Source of the DNA: Protoeuglena noctilucae
Taxonomy: Eukaryota
Length of the DNA stretch: 64,000 nt
Direction of reading: 5' to 3'
Assembly (NCBI GenBank): GCA_958009085.1
Contig: OY253669.1
Span: 434,001-498,000, forward strand
Under the pieces are notes generated by a model, which saw only the letters and a program-made list of their open reading frames with translations, ran no database searches and was not told where the DNA came from. Of this stretch, positions 1-64,000 are shown piece after piece (position 1 is the first letter of the stretch; every line of letters begins with the position of its first letter). Both the position numbers and the translations under genes were made by a program.

Positions 1-3000
1 GTCGGTGGCGGGGGGCACCCCCCGGGGTACGGGCAAGGGGACGGTGGTGGTGAAGCCGCCCGTGCCCCTCGCGATGCTGGCGGAGGCGCGCGACCGCCTG
101 CACCGCCTGCACGCCGTGCTGGCGCAGAGGTGCGTGGGGCAGGGCCAGAGAGATGGGCACCGGCCCTGCCACCTTGGGTGCAAGCCATGCGGAGAGTCAT
201 GAATGCCTGGGTTTTGTTTCATAAATCCCATGATCGCCAAGATGGCTCCGTCGCCTGTCCATTGCTCTTTTCTGACCCCACCGCAGGGAGTCTCCGACGT
301 TCTGGAAGGTGCAGAGCCTGCTGCGAATGGATGGGGACGGCGCGCATTTGGGAAAACGCAAGGGATCTCCGGGGATGTTGTTTGGTGGGGCGGAGGACGC
401 GCTGGGGCGGCAGACGCCGGGACTGCCTGGGTCAGCCTACAAGCGCATGCGTGGGGCGGACGGCGAGCGTGTGGGGTTGGGCCGGGGGGGCGAGGAAGAT
501 GCGGAGGCGGTTGAGGAAGAGGCCATGGCGTCTTTGCAGGCGCTCGTGGCCAGGGCGGCCCAGGTAAGGGGCGCGAGTGCCTCAGTTGGAGGTACCATGG
601 GTGCCTAGTTGGTGGTGGTGGGCAGTGGCCACAGCAGCGTCCCACTGCTCCCCATGACGCCGTCTCATGCCTCTATGCCCACCCACTGTCTCTCCCAGGT
701 CCTCTCCCTGCTCATCCTGGCATCCCGCCAGCGTCTGAGCCCCATGGAGGCACCCACCGTGGATCTGCTCACGCGTTCCACCCTTCGCGCTTTGGTGGTG
801 GAGGAGGCGGGGGAGCAGGCGCTGCGGGCCGTCATCCACGCCATGCAGCCGCAGGAGGCGGACGATGCACTGCGACAGGCGCTCGGGGCCGAGTGCCCGT
901 CCTTCTTCAAGGCGAGTGGGCGTGGCGAGCGGTTGTGCTGCGCTGGCCGGCGTGCGGAGAGAGTGGCAGCCGCAGCCCCCTCGCCGCTGGACGAAGCACA
1001 CGGTGGGCATTTCGGGGCTGAGCGGAAAGTAAGTATGTCAATGCCCATGTGAGAGCCGCGCGGGTGCCTGGCGTGGCTGTGTTTAGCACCTGCATGCGTT
1101 GGCACCGACAGTGCGCAGACTCACTGCAGCATCTGCACCCGAGCGCAGGAAGAGGATCAGAAGGCGCTTCTGGCGACCAAGGCCCTGGCGGAGGCGGATC
1201 GCATGGCAGAGGGGCCGGACAAGCAAGACCGGGCCGCAGCTGCACTGGCGCTGCTCCTGGAGCTGCCGGGCTCGGTGGACCTGGGCGCGGCCGTGCCGAT
1301 CCTGGCGCGCGTCGGGATGATCGACGGATGCGTGCAGCTGGTCGCGAGGCGAGGGATGCTTTGAGATGCTGGACTACTATTGTAGATGTGACGCAACGTG
1401 GGCCTCTGCAGGAGACCAGTGCGCTCAGCTGCGAGTGCCCTGGCCCCGCCCCGCTCGCAGGGCTGCGCATCTTTCCGACCCGGAGCAGCTCGCGGGCCGC
1501 CTGGGCCCGGAGGGAGAGGCGGCGCGGGCCCGCCGCCACCAGTCCTACCGCCACCTGCTGTCGGCCGTGGTGGCGCTCGGCAAGCCGGCCATCGCCAAGC
1601 TCCTCCGGTCGCAAGCCGCGGCCCAGGATCCCTGGCTCGCGGACTTTACGTTCGAGTACCTCGCCGCGGCACGCCAGGGCGACGTGCTGCTGGCCCAGGC
1701 CCCCGCCTCGCGACTGGAGGACTTCTTCCTTCGTGCCGGCGGCATCGACGCGGACCTGACCAGGCCGCTCCCGGCGCTGCTGCCGGCGCAGGAGCAGTGC
1801 TTGCTCCTGCTCTCCGACCTGTACGTCCGGCAGGGGCGGTCCGAGCGGGCGGCGCGTGTGCTCGAGGCGCTGGCGAGGAGGGACGGCCTGGGCATCGCAG
1901 ACCGGAGGGCGCTGCTGGGCCGCGCGAGGTCCGCGGCGGAGTCTGCGGGGGTTCCTAGCGGAGAGATCGCTAACTTGCTAGAAGTGCTGGACCTGCAGGA
2001 GGACGTGCTGCGGCGCGCGGAGCGGGCGGGGGCGGGGCGGGTGTCCCAGGCGAGGGCGTGCGCTGACATTGCGTGCGCTAAATGATGATGCCTGCGCTGA
2101 CTGAGGATGCGCGCCAGCACGTGCACTGGGTTCTCTTATCTCCGCCCAGCAGCGCCTTGCGTTTGCTGCGCCCGCAGGCGACCCTCACGGCGCTGTCTAC
2201 CACGCTCATGACCCTCTCGTCCCTGTACAACGACGTGGCGCACCCGCTGCACCTGTGGGACCTGTGCCTGCGGATTTTGGACGCCTCGGAGCTCCCGGAG
2301 GCGCACGCTGAGGTGGCGCTGGCGCTGTGGACCAACCTGCTCGTGCACCCTGGGAGTGAGGAAGCGGCGGGCGAGCAGGAAGGCGCGCAGTGGGTGGGGC
2401 TGCAGGAGGCAACGGAGACAGTGGTGGGCGTGGGACGCGCGCTGCGGCTTGGGGGGCCCGCGCTGCCGCTGGCTTTCATCGCCCGGCAGGTGACACGCGC
2501 GATGGGTGCACTTTGTCGCTACGCAGGGCGCCTAGCGGCTGGGCAGTGATGGTTGCCTCGTTGCGTTGCACGTGTACACATGTGACGGGCCGCGTCTGCG
2601 TCGCAGCTGTTCGAGGTGGCGGGCGCGGCGCTGGGCGAGCCCGAGTGCGTGAGGATCGCGGAGGCACTGCGGGCGGCGTGCGAGCGCGAGGGAGGCACGG
2701 CCCTGGCATCCGCGGCGCCCGCCATGGCCGCGCTGACGGACGTGGCGCACGCGACGGCGGACACGGGGACGCAGGAGGCCGCACTGGTGGCCGCCGCGCA
2801 TTTGGCCAGGTGAGATGCAGTGCAGCGGCAACAGGTTGCGACTTGCGTGGCTGCTGACGCTGACGGGGGCTAAGCAGAGGAGCTCGTTGGTACTGACGTA
2901 CGTGACCATCGTCGGGATGCGTGGGTTATCTGCTTCTACATTCGCTGCCCCCGCAGTGCCGTCAGTGCTGAGGCGGCGGGCGTGCCTCAGGGTAGCGCGG

Positions 3001-3158
3001 GCCTGCGGGAGCTTGCGGCTCTCCGCGACGCGTGCCAGCGACTGCGGTCCGGCGCTGCCCGTGCGATGTCTGCCGAGCTGGCGGAGGTGGCGGCGGGGGC
3101 GGCCAATCGTGCCATCGCTGCTTTGGACCGGATGGGCCGGGTGGGGTTCCGGGGCTGA
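1..3158 (+). CDS. NUP155: Nucleoporin Nup155/Nup170 family, 3' portion (gene starts upstream of window); 8 exons in window
   Basis: Spliced exons about 1-129, 287-562, 699-911, 1149-1348, 1461-2049, 2178-2489, 2607-2809, 2957-3158. They give CPSFFK|EEDQK..., LLSDLYVRQGRSERAARVLEALA and LMTLSSLYNDVAHPLHLWDLCLRIL, matching remembered Nup155 C-terminal motifs. Three introns start with GC (912, 1349, 2050). Confidence 0.85.
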
Positions 3159-3369: not shown

Positions 3370-3421
3370 GTCACGTCCGCAGCTTGACCAGCACTTGCAC
3401 CGTCACGTCCGCAGCTTGACC
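3370..3421. repeat. Exact 20-bp direct repeat duplicating the last codons and stop of the kinase gene
   Basis: gtcacgtccgcagcttgacc at 3370-3389 and 3402-3421. Confidence 0.9.
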
Positions 3422-19157: not shown

Positions 19158-19357
19158 NNNNNNNNNNNNNNNNNNNNNNNNNNNNNNNNNNNNNNNNNNN
19201 NNNNNNNNNNNNNNNNNNNNNNNNNNNNNNNNNNNNNNNNNNNNNNNNNNNNNNNNNNNNNNNNNNNNNNNNNNNNNNNNNNNNNNNNNNNNNNNNNNNN
19301 NNNNNNNNNNNNNNNNNNNNNNNNNNNNNNNNNNNNNNNNNNNNNNNNNNNNNNNNN
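19158..19357. other. Assembly gap (200 N)
   Basis: Run of n characters. Confidence 1.
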
Positions 19358-42893: not shown

Positions 42894-45800
42894 TCACCTC
42901 CGGTACCCCGTGCGTTTGAAGTTGAAGTAGAGGTGCAGGATGCCCCTCTCAAACACGCACTTGAAACCCCTCTTCGCCGTGTACTCCCACTCCTTGTTGA
43001 CGATGCGGAATGCGATGTCCTCGTAAGGCGCACCCGCCTTGAATCGAATCATGCACGTTGAGCCGTCCGCCGACTCCGGGTCTCGCTCGAGCACGTACGT
43101 GGGCGCGGAGGACTTGTCGATGAGGTCCGGGTAGAAGATGTTGAACTTGTAGCCCTGGACGACCTTGGGCGGCATGTTGTCGCTGTCGAAGTGGGCCTGC
43201 GTGGGAGTGGGGTGGGAGGGGGCAGTGACGGGCGGGTGGAGTGAGGCTGCGTTGGGGTGCATGCAGTCACCCGGTTGTGCTTGCTCCATTCAACACTCAG
43301 CCCGACCCCAATCAGTCACTCACCCGGTTGTACTTGCTCCACTCGCACCCAACACACACTCACTCACCCGGTTGTACTTGCTCCACTCGAACCCCGTGTG
43401 CACGCGGTTGAAGTACTTGGGCTTGCGCGGCTTGTACTTGTCGTGCCACCAGAACACCTGAGAGTCTAGCGCCACCTCCGAACGAGAGGACAGGTCCAGG
43501 TCTGGGGGCGGAGTCGGCAGGCGTGGGTGGAGGGGCGACGCGTGGTGCAACATGAGCAAGCGGGACCTGGGTATTATAGGTTGACAAGCCATAGGACGCA
43601 ACATCAAGTGCCTTCAGTCAAACAAAGGGAGTGTCACATTGCAGCAGCAGACGACGCCCCGATCGCTCCCGCCCGCCCCGCTCTAACCCCCGCCCTCGCT
43701 CACCTGCTCCCGTGTCGCTTTCCATCATCTTCATCGCCAGCGCCCACAGCGCCTGCGACTGCCGGTCCCCCTCCTCCTCCGCGCCCCGCACCAGGCCCCG
43801 CAGCCCGCCCTTGGCCTTACCCCGCTCCTTCTCCTTCCCCTTGCTCGGCGCGGGCGCCGCCATCGCCGCCGCCGCCGCCGCCGCCCGGAAGCGTTGGATT
43901 GCCCGGAAGCGCACCTGGGCGCGCAGATACTCGAGCTCCCGCGCGTCGTGCGCCCGCAGCACCACCTCTGCGTCTGGCGGTATCGGCACCCGCGGGGGCG
44001 ACCACCGGCCAGGCTCCGTGCGCGGATGAGCTGCAGGAGCGGGCGCGGGGCCCACGGCGAGCCCATCGCCGCCCCGCTCTCCCTCCCGTGCACCCCCTGC
44101 ATCCCCTACACCTCTGTCCCCAGCGCCACTCGCGCCCCCGCCCCCGTCCCCATCCCCGTCGCCCTCTTCCTCGTCTCCGATGTCGATCTCCTCGGCGTTC
44201 GCCAGAAACTCCCCAGGATCCGGAAGCGGGAACTCTTCCTCCCCAACTGCCCCAGACACACCCCCAGCATCGGCATCGGCATTGACAGCGCGGGCGCCGC
44301 CACTTGCGCCCCCGGCTTCGCCACCCTCTTCGTCGTCGAGAGGGATCTCTTCGGCGTTCGCAGTCGTGCCGGGCAACGGCGGCGGCGGAGGCAGCGCGAC
44401 CTGCGATGCTGCGGCGTCCAGGGCCACCCTGCGAGGAGGACAGGGAACGGACCGACAGTCACCCAGGGTTGCCTGGAAGTAACCACACAGCCCAGTTAAC
44501 CACATCCAATGACCCACGCAGCCGCGGTGTCAAAGGCCAACGACGGCCCCACTCTCCCATTCAGCCACGCAGCTAAGCCTCCCGAATTAATGCTGCAGTG
44601 CGCATGCGTTGCCCAGCGCCGCCCTCGCCTCTTCTCCCTCCTCAGCGCCCCCAGGTCCACGACTGTGTCGGCCCCCGCCCCCGTCCTCGCGATGTGACGG
44701 TCCAGAATGTCCGCGTGAATCTCCCGCACGCGCGCCCGTGCCACATGCACCGTCAGCCGGTGCAGCACCGCTCCCCAGTACTCCGGGTCGTCCGCCTCCC
44801 CGCTCTGCAGCATGCCCTGCACCTCCGCGCGAAGGCCCTGCGAGAGAGGCCAAACGAAGGTTTCCGTGTTCAGGCTCAACTGCTTGGATTGAACAGCTGT
44901 GCCGATTGTCCCAAAAACAGCTGTGGCACCTCCCCTGCGGCTCGGCAGACAGCCTCCCCTGCAGCTTCTCACCTGCAGCTCTGCGAAGTTCTTCCCCTGC
45001 AGCATCTCCTGCACGTCCTCCTCTACGCCTGGCGCCAGGGCATCCCCGCGCGGCGCCTCCACCGCCGTGCCCCGGATGCGCGCCTGCTCCTCCGCCTCGA
45101 CCCGCCTCTTCGCCTCCAGCTCATGATCCGCGACTGCAGGAAAGGAAGGGAAGGATCGCAATAGGCCATCGCCAACCGCAAGCTTGCCCAGGTCCCTGAC
45201 GCCCAGCGTCGTCGGCACCTGTGGACAGCGCGGACCAGTATTCGCGGTGGAGCGGATCGTCGGTGTCGAGTTCCACGAACTCGCGGATCTCGTTTCGCAG
45301 CTCCTCCGTCTCCTCGGCGTTGAGCTCATCGAAAACTCGGTAGGGTGCGGACGTGTCGACGCCCAGGCGCTCTCCGAGCAAGATGTTCTTCACCAGCACA
45401 TCGATGGGCTTCGGACGCTGCTCCGACAGGCGAATCTGCAGGGCCAAACGGCGGGGGGAGCATGAGAAGTGTGGTGCAGCCAGGATCCACCAGCACTTCG
45501 CGCCTCCGAGGAGACCGCGCCACCGTGGCAGTGCCTGCGCGTCCGCAAGCTGCAGAAGCGAACGCGGCCTCGACTTCGCACCTCGGAGCGATCGACGGCC
45601 GTCTTGAGATGGAAGAGCGTCTCCTTGCGGTCCAGCTCCGCGGCTTCCGCGCGAGCTTTCTCGCGGTTCAGCAGCTCCTTCTCTATCTCTCGCTCCTGGC
45701 GCTCCCGCTCCCGCTGCTCCTGGAGCTTCTTGACCTTCTCGATCTCCCGGAGGCGCTCCTCCATCCGCCGCTGCTCGGCGTCCGCCTTGAAGTCCTCCAC

Positions 45801-58747: not shown

Positions 58748-61700
58748 TCACCCCCCCATCCGGAAACTCGCCTCCCCTCGGTCCGGGCTGGTCCCGGCAC
58801 TCACCGCCCCCACCCGCCCGTCCCCATGCCCCACCGACGGACTCACTCCGGGGCTCAAGGCGTGCGCCCGCAGCGTCCCCCCCGCACTCTCCGCCCCCCC
58901 ACCACCACTTGGCGACAGTCCCGCCCCAGCCCCCTCCCCCGCACTCCTCGTGCCAGCTGCCACAGCGGCACCCTCGAACTCGTGACTCGCACCACCCGGC
59001 GACGGCCCTGCGTTGTGGGCCACCCCCGAACTGTGGGCTGCCCCCGTATTGTCGGCCGACGTCGGCCCAGCCTGTGCCACGGTCGCAGCCGCGTCCCTCG
59101 CGCGCGCCAGGTGCCGGGGTGTGAGTAAATCCGCGAGTCGGAAGACGGTCTTACGCACCGCAGCGGCGGCGGCGGACGCGGCGGAGGAGAGCGTGGTGGC
59201 CTGGGTGGCGTTGGTGGCGGTGCGGTGGGGGCGGTCGCGGGGGCTGCTGTCTACGGAGCCTGGGGGGAAGAGGAGAGAGAGGGAGAGGTGGGTGGGTGAT
59301 GCGTGGCGTGAGGTGCGACAGCTCCTGAGCTTGTGGGTGTCCCCAGGTGGTAAGGGTGTGTGTGGTCATTTGGTCAAGGCAGGCACCCGTGCACATACAT
59401 GACAGTGCATACACAGGACCATGCATCTCTGTGCTAAATGCATTTCCTCCACACGCATGTCCCCCTCACCGTCGTCTGCGTCCCTGGGCCCCTCCATCTT
59501 GGCCACCCCCCGCTCCCACACGTCCAGCACCCACCGCGTCATCCCCACGGCCGCACGGCTGCACGCGCCCACTGCGGGGTTGACACCGGGGAACGCGGTC
59601 ATACGCGGGTCATGGGTCAAGCGCGTCATACGACTGTCCCTCTGCTGATATGTCCCTCTACTGCTATGACGGAGACCTCGTTGCAGCATGCACTCCCAGC
59701 TGAGTGCCTCATGCAACTTTCCCCTCTCATCGCCCTCTCACCGATGTCCGGATCAAACATGGGGCTCTGCGCGATGTCCCTCATAGCATACATAGCAGTC
59801 ATACTTATCACACATATCATGATTAAAGTCAACCATTGTCATGCAATTCTCATAACCCCCTCACCGATGTCCGGGTCGAAGAAAGGGCTCTGCGCGATGT
59901 CCCGGAGCTTGCGCCACTTGGTGGGGTGCAGCGTGGGCCGCAGCTGCCGGCACTGCCGCATCTGCTCCAGGAAGTCGTCCACGCTGAGCATCGCGCGCAC
60001 GCACGGGGCCCAGTAGTCCTCCTCCATGCGCCGGTTGTAGAAGTCGTGCGTGCGGACGGGCTCTGGGGGGGAGGGGTGTGTGTGGGGGGGGTTGGACCGG
60101 GGGGGTTTGGGGGGGGCTGGGGGGTATGGGGCGTGGGGCATCGGCGTGGTGCGGAGGTAGCTGGTGCCAGCAGTCGGAGTTGGCTCCTGTCGGGAGCCCT
60201 ATTACACGTCAAAAATGTGAATGTCACCCATGTGACACGAAGTGCTGTGGTACCGTCAATATACCCCACTCACCGATGCCCAGCAGTACGACCACGGCGG
60301 ACATGACCAGTTGTGACAGACACGAGACAGTAACACTAGTACAGCCCCACTCACCGATTCCCAATAAAATGGCCACGGCCGACATGACCAGTTGTGACAT
60401 ATACATGAGCTATTACTGCTACTAGTACTATTGACACCATGACCATACTCACCGATGCCTAGTAAAATGGCCACGGCCGACATGACCAGCCGCACGGCCT
60501 TGTCGGGGGAGCGGAGGCCGCGGAGCTCCACCACGTCGTTGCGGGAGACGAACTGCGAATGGAGGGAGGTGAGACGCAATCAGTGTACATCATATACATC
60601 ATAGTTATGAGTTATGGATACCTATGATGACCAGTAGGTGTCCCAGGTACAGTGCCATACATACATCGCTCGATGCAACTACGCATCGCATCTGACCTCT
60701 TCTATACAAATACATCACGAGTACATCCTAATCAAGTGCTGTCAACAATCATACGTTCATCTCATCAGCACCCGTTCCCCTCGCCCCTCGCCTCGATGTG
60801 GTGGACTAGTGGTGTTGACAAGCGTGCATACGCATCATCGCATCAGCACCCCTCATACATCCCCTCGCCTCGATGTGGTGGACCTTCTTGGAGATGCTCC
60901 TCCCATCGACATGGGGCGTGACCATCTTGAGCGCCTTGCTGCTGGTCGTGCGCATGAAGTGGGGCCGCAGGTCGCCCACGATGGCCGGGCTGCGGTACCG
61001 GGAGCTCCGCATGCTGGTGACGCCGCTCTGCCGGCTCTCCACGCTCACCACCGACTGCACATCGCCGTCGCTGCTCAGCGTGCGCGCCTGGCTCATGCGG
61101 CGGCGGCTCGACTGCGATGGGGGAGGGGGGGGGGAGGGGGTTGGTGGGTGAGTGAGTGAGTGAGTGCCATGGCTCATGCGGCGGCGGCTCGACGGGGGGG
61201 GAAGGGGGGGCGGGTGGGTGGGAGTGATGGGGGGTTGCTAGGTGAGTGGGTGGTTGTGGTGGGGGTGCAAGCAGTGACGCGAGCGGTGAGGTGCCGATGC
61301 CAATGCTACTGCCAAAGCCGGTGCTCATGCTCATACTCATGCACATATACCAATGCCAATGTTCATCCCCCCCCATCTCCCAGGTCACCTGCGTGGAGAG
61401 CATGAAGTGTCGGCTGCCGTTCTCCACCGAGTTGCGGCCGGGGGACGAGGCGGCGTCCCTGGGGGCAGGGTGGTGGGGGGCGTGAGGTGCGTGGGAGATG
61501 GTGGTTTTGTGCAAGCGGGCATGTTTGTGAGGGGGAAAGGCCAAGTTCACCTCCTCCCGGCAGATGGAGAGCCTTGCATCTGTCTACAATATCACGACCC
61601 ACCCATCTTGCACTGTATATTCCCCCCCCACCCCAACAATCCCCCCCACCACCCCCCCTTCCCTCGCCTGGCCAGTGACCCCTGCCGCGACCTCAGTGGC

Positions 61701-64000
61701 CCCCTCCCCCTCCTCCCCACCGCACTGCCCGCGTCCGAGTCCGAGTCGTCCAGCGTGCGGGTGCGGAAGGAGGCAGTCGGGAGCATGTACCTGTGGGGAG
61801 GTGGGGAGAGATGGAGGGCGAGGGTAGCATAGCAGCAGGATTGGGCACACGCTGCCAGGGGTGGGAGCGTGCAGTTGAGCAGGGCTGTCGGTGCCTAGTG
61901 CCTACTATTCGCATCTTGCCCGCAACAGCGTCCCAAGCATGCCCCCCTTGCTCGCCTGGGAATGGTCCCATCGCCCCGCGAGTCAATCGATGACATGCGC
62001 GATATCTGAGACACGGACCCCGGTCCGGGGGAGTCGTTGTCATCCGCTGGAGTGGCCTTGAAGGAAGAGGACTTGGTGGGGCGCATGTACCTGGGGGGGG
62101 GGGTGAGGGTGAGGGGGGTGCAAGGCATGGCATTACAGCACGGCATTACAGCACGTGCGAGCATGCAAACAGAGGAGTGGGGTGCCAAAGCCAGAGCAGG
62201 GCGTGGCGGATTGAGGCATACACCCGCTCGCCCTCTCTCGCAATCAATAACAAGAGCGACAGTCGCAACAATCACCCATCCCCATCCCCTCGTCTCTCAC
62301 CCCGGCGTGGGCCCCGAACTGGCCTCCCCCCTCAGGTGCGAGGGGTTGTGCACGCGAGCCTCAGAGATCGCCGTCAGTCCCCCCAGGGTGGGCGCGCTGG
62401 GGCCCGCGGCGGATGCGGCGTCGTAGACCCTCTTGGCCCACACGGCGATGCCCGCAGCGGCCAGGGACACCGTGCGCAGGCTCTGGGGGGGGGGGGTTAC
62501 GGGGTGTGGAATGCGCTGAGGTGCATGAGAAACCGTACGCAGGCTCTGTGTGTGGGGGGGGGGGGGGGGGGGGAGGAGTTAGAGGGAGGGAGAGGTGGGA
62601 TGGTGGGGTGTTGACAGCGCTGAGGTGCATGAGACACCGTGCGCAGGCTCTGAGGTGAGGGGAGAGGGGTTTAAGGGGGGTAGAGATGGGATGGTGGTGC
62701 TTTGAAGGTGGTGTTGACTGCGCTGATGCTCACTAGACACCCAAGTCACCCTATACATGCATGGCACTCCCCCCGCATCGCCATCACCCTCATGCACTCC
62801 TACATACACTCCAACCACCCCAAACTCTCCCTCCCCCGCCCAAACCACCCACCTCCGGCTCCAGCGCCCCCCTCTCCAGCAGCACCCCCACCCTGTGCAG
62901 CGCCTCGGGTGCAATGCTGAGCTTGTCCGCGTCGTTGTGCAGGATACACCGATCGGCCACGTCCTGTAGCCTATTCAAGAACCGATTGACGTCGTGCATC
63001 ATCGATAGAGCCGTCTTCCACCAATCGGGGGCGTGGGTCTTGCCCTTGGGAGTGGCGTTGCGTACGGGAACCATCACGGGGGACTGCCCCAGCAGCAAGC
63101 TCACGGCCTCAAACACCGGGATGACGGCGGGGGAGGGGGTGCGGAGGGCGCGCAGCATGGATATTTCTGGCTTGGAGATGCCCAGCAAGGCGATGTCAAT
63201 CATGCCGGTGTCGTCGGCCTCGGGGGCGGGGGCGGCCGGGGCGGACTCGGCGGCGGGGCGGGCGCGGGCGGGGGTGTCGGAAGCGCGCCTGGGGGGGGAG
63301 GGGGTTGGGGGGTGGATGTGGATGGAGAGGGAGAGGGATGGGGAGGAGGGTGGGGTGGGGTGGGTTTGGAGGGAGGGGGTGTGTGAGTGGATAATAAGGC
63401 GACGGAAGTGGGGGTGTTTGAGGCGCTCCTGGGGGGGGGGGGTTGAGAGGGGTGGGGTGGAGTGGGGGGGTGAGGTGGATGGGTGGCTAACGTGTGGGTC
63501 ACGAGGTGCATGTTGTACAGGGGCAGTTGCGTAGGGATCGACGTCCCGCACCGCACTGCGTTGTGTAAAGGCCGCAGCGAGCACAGGAGGGGTCACCCAA
63601 GCAACCATGCACACGACCACGCCTCGCTCTGTGTATGGCATGCCTAGGCAGGTAGCATGTATGTAGCATGCGTGTCCCTCACTTGAGTTTCTCGATGAGG
63701 GCGGGCTGCGTGGCCTGGTTGAGGCTCCAGATGCCGATGAGGACGGCGTGGAGCTTCTGGATTTCCGGGCCGGCCGTGCGCACCGCTGGAGGGGGGGGGG
63801 GTTGGAGGGCGTATGAGTGAGTGGGCATGTGGTGATGCATACTGCGACAAACGGTGGCTGGCATGACATGGTATAACGTGTGTAATGGAGAAAGACACGA
63901 GAGCCGCAGCGACGGGTGGTGCGGCACCGTTGACGTCGTCACCCCCACGCACGGCTGCACTCCTGCTGCCACCCCACCCCCACCCATACCACCCCCTCAC
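58748..64000 (-). CDS. Large multi-exon protein (5' end outside window) with two dynein stalk-head (MTBD)-like modules and low-complexity linkers
   Basis: Module 1: ISKPEISMLRALRTPSPAVIPVFEAVSLLLG...DWWKTALSMMHDVNRFLNRL...SLRTVSLAAAGIAVWAKRVY. Module 2: VSRNDVVELRGLRSPDKAVRLVMSAVAILLG...DYWAPCVRAMLSVDDFLEQM...PFFDPD...CSRAAVGMTRWV. Confidence 0.65.
59738..62652. repeat. Cluster of intronic copies of adjacent exon/splice-junction segments
   Basis: 59738-59780 vs 59861-59903; 60268-60310 and 60349-60391 vs 60447-60489; 60784-60806 vs 60861-60883; 61170-61193 vs 61089-61112; 62532-62548 and 62633-62652 vs 62466-62485. Confidence 0.9.

What the first reader, a model, noticed from the sequence alone, without database searches (positions are those of the whole stretch)
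59738..62652. Introns carry 'echo' copies of their own exon-intron junctions, with mostly synonymous differences
Seen in sequence: at least five junctions of this gene, plus one in cactin, have 20-45 nt copies of the flanking exon end together with its donor or acceptor, lying about 45-180 nt inside the intron. By hand count about 15 of 21 substitutions between copy and real exon are synonymous in the exon's frame. The rest are mostly conservative (A>V, I>V, F>M). Neutral decay of an intronic copy should give a clearly lower synonymous fraction, although the numbers are small and the copies are not independent. Inference: the copies could be translated through unusual alternative splicing, or be fragments of diverged alleles captured by recombination or repair at junctions, or mark a recurrent junction duplication and turnover process that grows introns.
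Basis: partly seen in the sequence, partly recalled or inferred. Interest (0 to 1): 0.8.

Follow-up and report, generated by a model that had tools for sequence, protein, structure and literature searches.

The report
Tandem splice-junction copies inside introns
Short DNA segments that straddle exon-intron borders were duplicated head to tail, leaving apparently unused spare copies of the border inside several introns; such repeats are already known from human genes, but the mostly silent differences between copy and exon are only partly explained.

Summary
I found eleven copies at eight coding-sequence borders: six in one minus-strand gene, one in cactin, one near 3.4 kb. Each repeats 15-39 nt of exon end, mostly with its splice site, 32-179 nt inside the adjoining intron. 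Twelve such short-range repeat pairs occur, against 0.1 in shuffles.

They are head-to-tail arrays of 32-140 nt units whose outermost unit spans the border. Homologous uninterrupted proteins and a Pfam profile show that the conserved protein comes from the outermost donor or acceptor, so the copies are intronic. They make up 24-46% of six introns.

This is the class described for human F7, CBS, LAMIN B2 and PDGF: a minisatellite whose first monomer spans an exon-intron boundary.

My count is 18 synonymous of 25 differences. Neutral decay of the copy alone predicts 27-37%. Adding purifying selection on the real exon predicts 40-51%. A residual excess remains (P 0.006-0.04), with few and partly dependent events.

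Translation of the copies is excluded by reading frame for all but one. Allele capture could not be tested.

No reads, RNA or whole genome were available. The junction association itself is largely geometry: introns of about 200 nt and units of about 100 nt.

The parts
58748..63785 (-). Gene X (3' part; runs off the window). It has 11 exons, Ea-Ek, that join into one frame of 734 codons with GC3 0.88. It encodes a protein with repeated dynein-stalk-like modules.
   Evidence: colinear with P0002, P0003 and P0015. (Pfam MT stalk: weak in the window, E 2e-6 to 3e-5 in homologs).
59865..59903 (-). J6 real core: last 39 nt of exon Ei. The donor GT is at 59864-59863.
59725..59780 (-). J6 copy. The exon-derived part is 59742-59780, followed by donor-like GTGAGA. 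It lies 123 nt into the intron and has 5 differences (3 synonymous).
   Evidence: (D8)
59625..59656 (-). J6 third unit, decayed, with an internal deletion. Read by eye.
   Evidence: (TRF 59635-59668)
60447..60489 (-). J5 real core: last 37 nt of exon Eh (60453-60489) plus donor GTGAGT.
60345..60391 (-). J5 copy E2 (exon-derived part 60355-60391), 98 nt into the intron, with an intact donor. It has 3 differences, all synonymous.
   Evidence: (D3)
60264..60310 (-). J5 copy E3 (exon-derived part 60274-60310), 179 nt into the intron, with an intact donor. It has 7 differences (5 synonymous). Its upstream boundary is the same as that of E2.
60861..60883 (-). J4 real core: last 15 nt of exon Eg plus GC donor GCGAGGGG.
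   Evidence: In one search, VHHIE|FVSR is conserved in the homologs.
60784..60806 (-). J4 copy: 23 of 23 nt identical, 77 nt into the intron.
   Evidence: (D12). Filler homology z 4.4.
61089..61112 (-). J3 real core: the G of the acceptor AG plus the first 23 nt of exon Eg.
61170..61193 (-). J3 copy: 24 of 24 nt identical, 81 nt upstream in the intron. It is preceded by CG instead of AG.
   Evidence: (D9)
62464..62484 (-). J2 real core: acceptor AG plus the first 19 nt of exon Ec.
62527..62547 (-). J2 copy E1, 63 nt upstream, with an intact AG. It has 3 differences, all synonymous. If used, it would add an in-frame, stop-free 21 aa.
62631..62651 (-). J2 copy E2, 167 nt upstream, with an intact AG. 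It has 1 synonymous difference.
   Evidence: (D4, D6)
62710..62741 (-). Older remnant of the intron-derived part of the J2 unit.
   Evidence: (D4)
63270..63290 (-). J1 real core: acceptor AG plus the first 19 nt of exon Eb.
63410..63430 (-). J1 copy, 140 nt upstream, with an intact AG. It has 4 differences (2 synonymous). This is the weakest case and fell below the threshold of my scan.
   Evidence: (D5)
43360..43388 (-). Cactin real core: last 21 nt of the exon (43368-43388) plus donor GTGAGTGA.
   Evidence: In one search, the Pfam CactinC_cactus profile runs 1-27 then 28-123 across the junction.
43316..43344 (-). Cactin copy E1, 44 nt into the intron. No difference in the 21 exon-derived nt.
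43267..43291 (-). Cactin copy E2, 97 nt into the intron. It has 2 differences (1 synonymous). The donor is weakened to GTGAC.
3370..3421 (-). Two identical 20-nt copies 32 nt apart at the end of a minus-strand coding exon. The border they span is either a GTGAC donor or the stop codon of the gene. This is unresolved.

Best explanation
The copies are the inner units of small head-to-tail repeat arrays, with units of 32-140 nt and 2-4 units per array. The outermost unit of each array straddles an exon-intron border.

Inferred mechanism. A tandem duplication arises through slippage, microhomology-mediated repair or unequal exchange. If it spans a donor or an acceptor, it leaves the mRNA unchanged as long as splicing keeps using the first donor or the last acceptor. 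It is therefore tolerated, and it lengthens the intron. Later expansion of an array reuses the same unit boundaries.

The real exon end is held by protein-level selection, while the inner copies and the intron-derived filler drift. This keeps the exon-derived cores recognisable. It also shifts the copy-versus-exon differences towards synonymous sites. The remaining synonymous excess is most likely small-sample noise.

What is shown:
- the array structure;
- the gene models;
- that the outermost sites give the conserved protein.

What is inferred:
- the mutational mechanism;
- that the copy splice sites are silent;
- the cause of the synonymous bias.
For: Statistical reality: 12 repeat pairs against 0.1 in 30 shuffles.

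Array structure:
- J5 copies E2 and E3 share the same upstream boundary, and their fillers are homologous (z 4.3).
- J4 fillers are homologous (z 4.4), as are J2 intron-derived parts (z 5.6).
- J2 and J6 each carry an older, decayed further unit.

Orientation: every donor copy lies downstream of the real donor and every acceptor copy lies upstream of the real acceptor.

Gene model:
- The 11 exons joined at the outermost sites give one open frame of 734 codons.
- That frame is colinear, with no insert at any junction, with the uninterrupted homologs P0002, P0003 and P0015.
- The Pfam cactin profile is contiguous (27|28) across the first donor.

Intron lengths: without the copies, all ten introns are 165-254 nt. 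The copies supply 24-46% of six of them.

Geometry: random harmless duplications of 63-140 nt in this gene would span a junction 46-78% of the time. No junction-targeted mechanism is needed.

No mobile element: the introns have no other copy in the window and no terminal inverted repeats.

Direction of change: the non-synonymous differences that can be polarised lie on the copy. The homologs keep F in SPFFDP. Conservation of the cactin Y is my recollection, not tested here.

Precedent: human genes with a minisatellite whose first monomer spans an exon-intron boundary. These are F7 (37 bp), LAMIN B2 (100 bp), PDGF (81 bp) and CBS. In F7, LAMIN B2 and PDGF only the authentic site is used (PMC1557585; abstract and Introduction passages).
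Against: 1. The synonymous excess is not fully absorbed. With a neutral copy plus a synonymous-only exon lineage, the expected synonymous fraction is 0.40-0.51. P(at least 18 of 25) ranged from none of 1500 runs to 0.024. It is 0.006-0.04 after dropping J1 and/or collapsing shared events. In three-copy arrays I read copy-specific changes off by parsimony. Five of those 6 are synonymous (hand binomial, about 0.01-0.02).

2. The cores are much better kept than the fillers.
- Cores: 25 differences and 0 indels in 265 nt.
- Fillers: 75 substitutions in 395 aligned columns, plus 195 gap columns.
- 6 of 9 filler comparisons are no better than shuffles (z below 2.5).
- Four copies with identical cores sit next to dissimilar fillers.
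- A single duplication followed by uniform decay does not predict this. Local gene conversion, insertion of the core alone, or indel-prone fillers must be added.

3. Six of 8 arrays sit in one 5-kb gene of a 64-kb window. This is unexplained.

4. Silence of the copy splice sites is inferred only. Ten of the 11 copies keep the splice dinucleotide; J3 has lost its AG. Four of the 7 donor-type copies are identical to the real site from -3 to +6, as I read it.

5. No reads were available to confirm the assembly.
Confidence: 0.68

Rival explanations
1. The cores of the inner units are repeatedly overwritten from a functional template. That template could be the real junction (local gene conversion), a diverged allele (unequal crossing-over between homologs) or a paralog. 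The cores would then carry differences that arose under protein-level selection, while the fillers drift freely.
For: - A residual synonymous excess remains.
- The cores are far more similar than the fillers, with no indels in 265 nt.
- In J2, the far copy E2 matches the real exon over 20 identical nt, while the near copy E1 differs at 3 sites. This non-monotonic pattern is typical of conversion.
- This is the only codon-aware reading that works for out-of-frame copies.
Against: - Conversion from the real exon alone does not create a synonymous bias. Differences after a conversion event accumulate as in the null model (my reasoning).
- Allele capture would need silent-site divergence of roughly 25-50% for J5 and J6. 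That is far above usual within-species diversity (my knowledge).
- No paralog of these exon ends exists in the window.
- No other strain or genome could be examined.
Confidence: 0.15
2. The copies are functional. They would act as alternative or decoy splice sites that regulate the gene, for example through unproductive splicing and decay, or in one case by adding a peptide. Selection would maintain them.
For: - Ten of the 11 copies keep the splice dinucleotide, counting the copy at 3370 as a donor. Four of the 7 donor-type copies are identical to the real site from -3 to +6 (as I read).
- J2-E1 would give an in-frame, stop-free 21-aa insert.
- In human CBS, pseudo-sites of such a minisatellite are used alongside the authentic site (PMC1557585 Introduction).
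Against: - 6 of 6 donor copies and 2 of the 3 acceptor copies that keep their AG would shift the frame or meet a stop.
- The one other in-frame acceptor copy (J3) has lost its AG.
- The homologs show no insert at any junction.
- A splicing signal would not be conserved in a codon-periodic way.
- No RNA data were available.
Confidence: 0.08
3. Assembly artefact: diverged haplotypes or strains were laid in series at the border between conserved exon and divergent intron.
For: - The window comes from a scaffolded assembly with a 200-N gap.
- The pattern of a conserved exon part with silent differences and a diverged intron part is what two alleles would show.
Against: - Arrays have up to 3-4 units.
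- Two J5 copies share exactly the same boundary sequence that is absent from the exon.
- Four copies are identical to the real core, so no haplotype difference would have split the graph there.
- The gap is 24 kb away from the nearest array.
- No reads could be laid.
Confidence: 0.06

Closest known systems
Human minisatellites whose first monomer spans an exon-intron boundary: F7 IVS7 (37 bp, 5-9 repeats), LAMIN B2 (100 bp), PDGF intron 4 (81 bp), CBS IVS13 (PMC1557585; abstract and Introduction read)
   Same: Both are head-to-tail units of tens to about 100 nt. The first unit contains the exon end and the donor, so the donor is repeated inside the intron. In most of the human cases the outermost (authentic) site makes the mRNA, and here it makes the conserved protein.
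   Different: - There are only 2-4 units per array here, and they have diverged. The F7 pseudo-sites are strictly identical.
- Arrays occur at acceptors as well as donors.
- Six borders of one gene are affected.
- The exon-derived part is long (15-39 nt, against 4 nt in F7), so codon-level differences can be read.
- Copy-number polymorphism and splice-site use were not testable here.
Intron gain by tandem genomic duplication (potato RdRp case, PMC4974935, search listing and start of abstract only; the general model is recalled)
   Same: A small tandem duplication inside a gene is made harmless by splicing.
   Different: In that model an exonic segment is duplicated and a new intron runs from the GT of one copy to the AG of the next. 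Here the duplicated unit already contains intron sequence. The intron ends are not copies of the opposite exon. The events enlarge existing introns.
Tandem exon duplication and mutually exclusive exons
   Same: Both involve local tandem duplication within a gene. The same gene has a true duplicated exon pair, Ed/Ee, with a 300-nt period.
   Different: The copies lack the other end of the exon. No in-frame cassette can be built from them.
Introner-type mobile elements (PMC9860276, search listing only)
   Same: Both are repeated sequence associated with introns and splice sites.
   Different: There are no dispersed copies in the window and no terminal inverted repeats. Each copy matches only its own neighbouring exon.
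Small tandem duplications from double-strand-break repair (PMC8355091, search listing and start of abstract only)
   Same: The size class is similar and the outcome is a tandem repeat. This is a possible way for the first duplication to arise.
   Different: No break, enzyme or microhomology rule was tested here. The link is an inference.

Membership tests
Junction-spanning minisatellite (F7 IVS7 type) | Head-to-tail repeat units | tested here: met
   Unit periods are 32-140 nt. J5 copies share unit boundaries. Fillers are homologous in J5 (z 4.3), J4 (z 4.4) and J2 (z 5.6). For J3, J1, cactin and 3370, filler homology is not detectable, so insertion of the core alone is not excluded.
Junction-spanning minisatellite (F7 IVS7 type) | The outermost unit contains the exon-intron border | tested here: met
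   Gene models are fixed by frame, by homolog colinearity and by the Pfam profile. The real cores lie at the borders.
Junction-spanning minisatellite (F7 IVS7 type) | The splice site is reiterated in the inner units | tested here: met
   Ten of the 11 copies keep GT/GC or AG (counting 3370 as a donor). J3 has CG in place of AG.
Junction-spanning minisatellite (F7 IVS7 type) | Only or mainly the outermost site is used | tested here: inconclusive
   The conserved protein needs the outermost sites.
Junction-spanning minisatellite (F7 IVS7 type) | Copy number varies between individuals | not testable with these tools
   No other strain or reads were available.
Intron gain by tandem duplication of an exonic AGGT segment | The intron runs from the GT of copy 1 to the AG of copy 2, so the 3' end of the intron copies the upstream exon end | tested here: not met
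   Copies lie mid-intron and carry their own splice site and intron sequence. The intron ends are not exon copies.
Introner / transposon-derived intron sequence | Dispersed copies with terminal repeats or target-site duplications | tested here: not met
   The only matches of these introns in the 64-kb window are their own neighbouring exon ends. There are no terminal inverted repeats. The genome-wide question is not testable.
Mutually exclusive or cassette exon copies | A complete exon copy with its own acceptor and donor, compatible in phase | tested here: not met
   No in-frame, stop-free cassette ends at any donor copy of gene X. Only 9-nt trivial ones exist in cactin.

The most novel reading that the evidence does not exclude
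Introns in this organism may grow from their ends by turnover of border-spanning repeat units. Under this reading the exon-derived cores of the inner units are not free-running junk. They are kept codon-compatible by recurrent exchange with functional templates, either the real junction or diverged alleles. The inner units would then act as a reservoir that can be swapped back into the exon, feeding silent variants into exon ends. This would explain three things together: the synonymous bias, the absence of indels in the cores and the intact spare splice sites.
Probability: 0.12. Interest if true: 0.7.

Novelty: new member of a known kind. Interest (0 to 1): 0.35.

Why it matters
The window gives clean sequence-level examples of introns lengthened by 24-46% through duplication of their own borders. 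This happens at donors and acceptors alike, without changing the protein. Because 15-39 nt of coding sequence is carried into each copy, the arrays work as dated snapshots of the exon end. A genome-wide set of such copies could measure neutral decay against exon evolution. It could also test whether spare splice sites are ignored by a first-site rule outside mammals. As it stands, it is an ordinary kind of repeat with one small, unexplained statistical oddity.

Tried and rejected
- Whole genome of the window: none is held.
I did not repeat it, so read laying was never used.
- Orthologous loci in metagenome contigs: 10 loci were returned, all weak (38-52% identity over 23-44 residues). None is an ortholog and none was used.
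- Word-index protein search with exon Eb, longer proteins only: it found only the window's own uninterrupted ORF call, P0001.
- Earlier notes of this scan: nothing for this genome or sequence. A word search returned junction duplications in organellar and archaeal introns only. I did not use them.
- Tandem Repeats Finder does not report the arrays, because whole-unit identity is too low.
- Translation of the copies: rejected by frame analysis.
- Mobile element: rejected within the window.
- Length variants among members of the homolog cluster: they do not map to junctions.
- A junction-targeted duplication mechanism: considered, then set aside. Geometry alone predicts that 46-78% of harmless duplications in this gene span a junction.
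- A run of three A/T-ending codons at the end of Eh: it looked like a trace of copy-to-exon transfer. Such runs occur elsewhere in the gene at about the expected rate, so I dropped the idea.
- Indirect purifying selection on copies through frequent conversion: my reasoning is that the silent divergence seen implies conversion too rare for this to work.


Full report
CONTEXT

The window is GC-rich: 62-74% GC in 2-kb bins. It is intron-rich eukaryotic DNA with one 200-N gap at 19158-19357. My impression that it is green-alga-like rests on recalled features and was not tested. No whole genome is held for it. Everything below therefore rests on the 64 kb itself, on protein homologs and on the literature.

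Yes. Reading 59-64 kb and a repeat search show the copies directly. I also scanned the whole window for non-low-complexity direct repeats 25-300 nt apart. The scan found 12 pairs, against a mean of 0.1 in 30 composition-preserving block shuffles. Lowering the threshold added nothing of this kind.

- Seven pairs lie in one minus-strand gene, here called gene X.
- Three lie in the last intron of cactin.
- One lies at 3370-3421.
- One is an in-exon coding repeat of cactin.

Tandem Repeats Finder misses the arrays because whole-unit identity is low.

GENE MODELS

Eleven exons of gene X, joined at the outermost splice sites, give one open frame of 734 codons ending in a stop, with GC3 0.88. Three of the ten donors are GC.

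A full-library protein search with one exon found homologs P0002 (1805 aa) and P0003 (570 aa). A cluster look-up added P0015 (1427 aa). These are uninterrupted ORFs. P0002 and P0003 carry the Pfam dynein microtubule-binding stalk domain at E 3e-5 and 2e-6. The window exon alone reaches only E 0.11.

The spliced protein aligns colinearly with these homologs. No insert appears at any junction. For example, VHHIE|FVSR, LLGI|EPVRTHDF and FFDPDI|VG are conserved.

For cactin, the Pfam CactinC_cactus profile ends at position 27 in the upstream exon and resumes at 28 in the next. In every case the conserved protein therefore comes from the first donor or the last acceptor, and the copies are intronic.

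ANATOMY

On the coding strand each donor copy lies downstream of its real donor. The distances are 44, 77, 97, 98, 123 and 179 nt, plus 32 nt at 3370. Each acceptor copy lies upstream of its real acceptor, at 63, 81, 140 and 167 nt.

The copies are the inner units of head-to-tail arrays:
- The two J5 copies begin at exactly the same boundary, after the same eight bases that are absent from the exon.
- The intervening fillers are homologous in J5 (z 4.3), J4 (z 4.4) and J2 (z 5.6).
- J2 and J6 each carry a further, more decayed unit.

With the inner units removed, all ten introns of gene X are 165-254 nt long. The units supply 24-46% of six of them. These introns match nothing else in the window and have no terminal inverted repeats.

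The repeat at 3370-3421 ends a minus-strand coding exon. The border it spans is either a GTGAC donor or the stop codon of the gene. A convergent gene lies just downstream, and I could not decide between the two.

IS THE JUNCTION ASSOCIATION SPECIAL?

Less than it looks. Take introns of about 200 nt and units of 63-140 nt. A randomly placed duplication that does not disturb the mRNA would then span a junction in 46-78% of cases in this gene. My hand product for six of six arrays is about 0.06.

What remains unexplained is the clustering. Six of 8 arrays lie in a 5-kb gene of a 64-kb window. By length alone my hand binomial is below 1e-4. The window also has no clean short-range repeat that is purely intronic or intergenic.

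THE SYNONYMOUS BIAS

Across 11 copies and 265 exon-derived nt there are 25 differences and no indel. Eighteen are synonymous and 7 are not. Seventeen fall at codon position 3, seven at position 1 and one at position 2. Four copies have no difference.

Simulations conditioned on the observed numbers gave these synonymous fractions:
- Copy decays alone: 0.27-0.37. No run of 1500 reached 18.
- Real exon also evolves at the same rate but accepts only synonymous changes: 0.40-0.51. This was tried across transition bias up to 3 and GC-to-AT bias up to 3. P(at least 18) ranged from no run in 1500 to 0.024.
- After dropping the weak J1 and/or counting shared differences once: P 0.006-0.04.

Selection on the real exon explains part of the bias, and a modest excess remains.

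Two hand checks point the same way.
- In three-copy arrays, 5 of the 6 changes that parsimony places on a copy lineage are synonymous (read).
- Non-third positions differ at 8 of 178 sites (4.5%). Fillers differ at 75 of 395 aligned columns (19%) and carry 195 gap columns besides.

The events are few and partly dependent. The finding was also picked out because it looked striking. I therefore treat the excess as suggestive, not established.

WHAT THE BIAS IS NOT

It is not translation.
- Using any of the six donor copies shifts the frame or meets a stop.
- No in-frame cassette exon can end at a donor copy of gene X.
- Of the acceptor copies, only J2-E1 (+63 nt, 21 aa, stop-free, AG intact) could be read in frame.
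- The other in-frame acceptor copy, J3, has lost its AG.
- The homologs have no such inserts.

Simple two-way gene conversion with the real junction would not make a synonymous bias by my reasoning. It could, however, explain why cores stay near-identical beside diverged fillers. It could also explain why the far J2 copy is closer to the exon than the near one.

Capture of diverged functional alleles would explain all the features. It needs very high silent divergence, and it could not be tested.

An assembly artefact is unlikely. The arrays have several units, the J5 copies share an exact boundary, and four copies have identical cores. I could not check reads.

COMPARISON WITH WHAT IS KNOWN

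The structure belongs to a described class. Borensztajn et al. 2006 (PMC1557585; abstract and passages of the Introduction and Discussion read) describe human genes with minisatellites whose first monomer spans an exon-intron boundary:
- F7 IVS7: 37 bp, 5-9 repeats, only the most upstream donor used.
- PDGF: 81 bp monomer, a similar situation.
- CBS: pseudo-sites are also used.

The present arrays differ in several ways. They are short and diverged. They occur at acceptors too. They affect six borders of one gene. They carry enough coding sequence for codon-level reading.

They do not fit intron creation by duplication of an exonic AGGT segment (PMC4974935; listing and start of abstract only), mobile introners, or duplicated cassette exons.

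Four keyword searches showed me no description of multi-junction arrays in an alga or of a synonymous bias in such copies. These were limited keyword searches of an open-access library.

VERDICT

The finding is a real feature and a new member of a known kind. It is of moderate interest because of the density in one gene and the partly unexplained silent-site bias. RNA reads, long genomic reads and a genome-wide count would settle the open points.

Noticed in passing
window 58748-63785 (-): Gene X encodes a large protein built of repeated modules that resemble the dynein heavy-chain stalk. The homologs are P0002, P0003 and P0015. P0002 and P0003 pass or nearly pass the Pfam MT threshold. P0004 joins one such module to a TLC domain. 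Its function is unknown.
   Followed up: partly
window 61955-61954, 61667-61666, 60868-60867 (-): Three of the ten introns of gene X use GC donors of the form GCGAG. All three are needed for the open frame. Conserved flanks in the homologs clearly support two of them, Ed|Ee and Eg|Eh.
   Followed up: partly
window 61668-62090 (-): Exons Ed and Ee are a tandem exon duplication with a 300-nt period. They share the same first 8-10 nt, the same GC donor context and the same phase. Both copies have counterparts in homolog P0015, so the duplication is old.
   Followed up: partly
window 62483-62545 (-): The copy acceptor J2-E1 has an intact AG. If used, it would insert 21 residues in frame that begin with the same six residues as exon Ec. 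It is a candidate alternative 3' splice site.
   Followed up: partly
window 3370-3421 (-): A 20-nt exact repeat lies at the end of a coding exon. It may span the stop codon and the start of the 3' UTR rather than a splice donor. A plus-strand coding-looking ORF converges just downstream, at about 2874-3158.
   Followed up: partly
window 60524-60551 versus 60781-60805 and 60866-60885: The start of exon Eh is 76-80% complementary over 20-25 nt to the end of exon Eg and to its intronic copy. This pairing would bridge the intron in the pre-mRNA. It may be chance.
   Followed up: no
window 44185-44361 and 44805-45018 (-): Cactin has in-frame repeated coding motifs, both within one exon and across two successive exons. 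These are protein-level repeats and are unrelated to the junction copies.
   Followed up: no
window 59572-60868: The three introns that carry the donor-side arrays are the least GC-rich of the gene (0.49-0.57, against 0.58-0.65 for the other seven). Their fillers are rich in indels.
   Followed up: partly
window 19158-19357: A run of 200 N, which is a scaffold gap.
   Followed up: no
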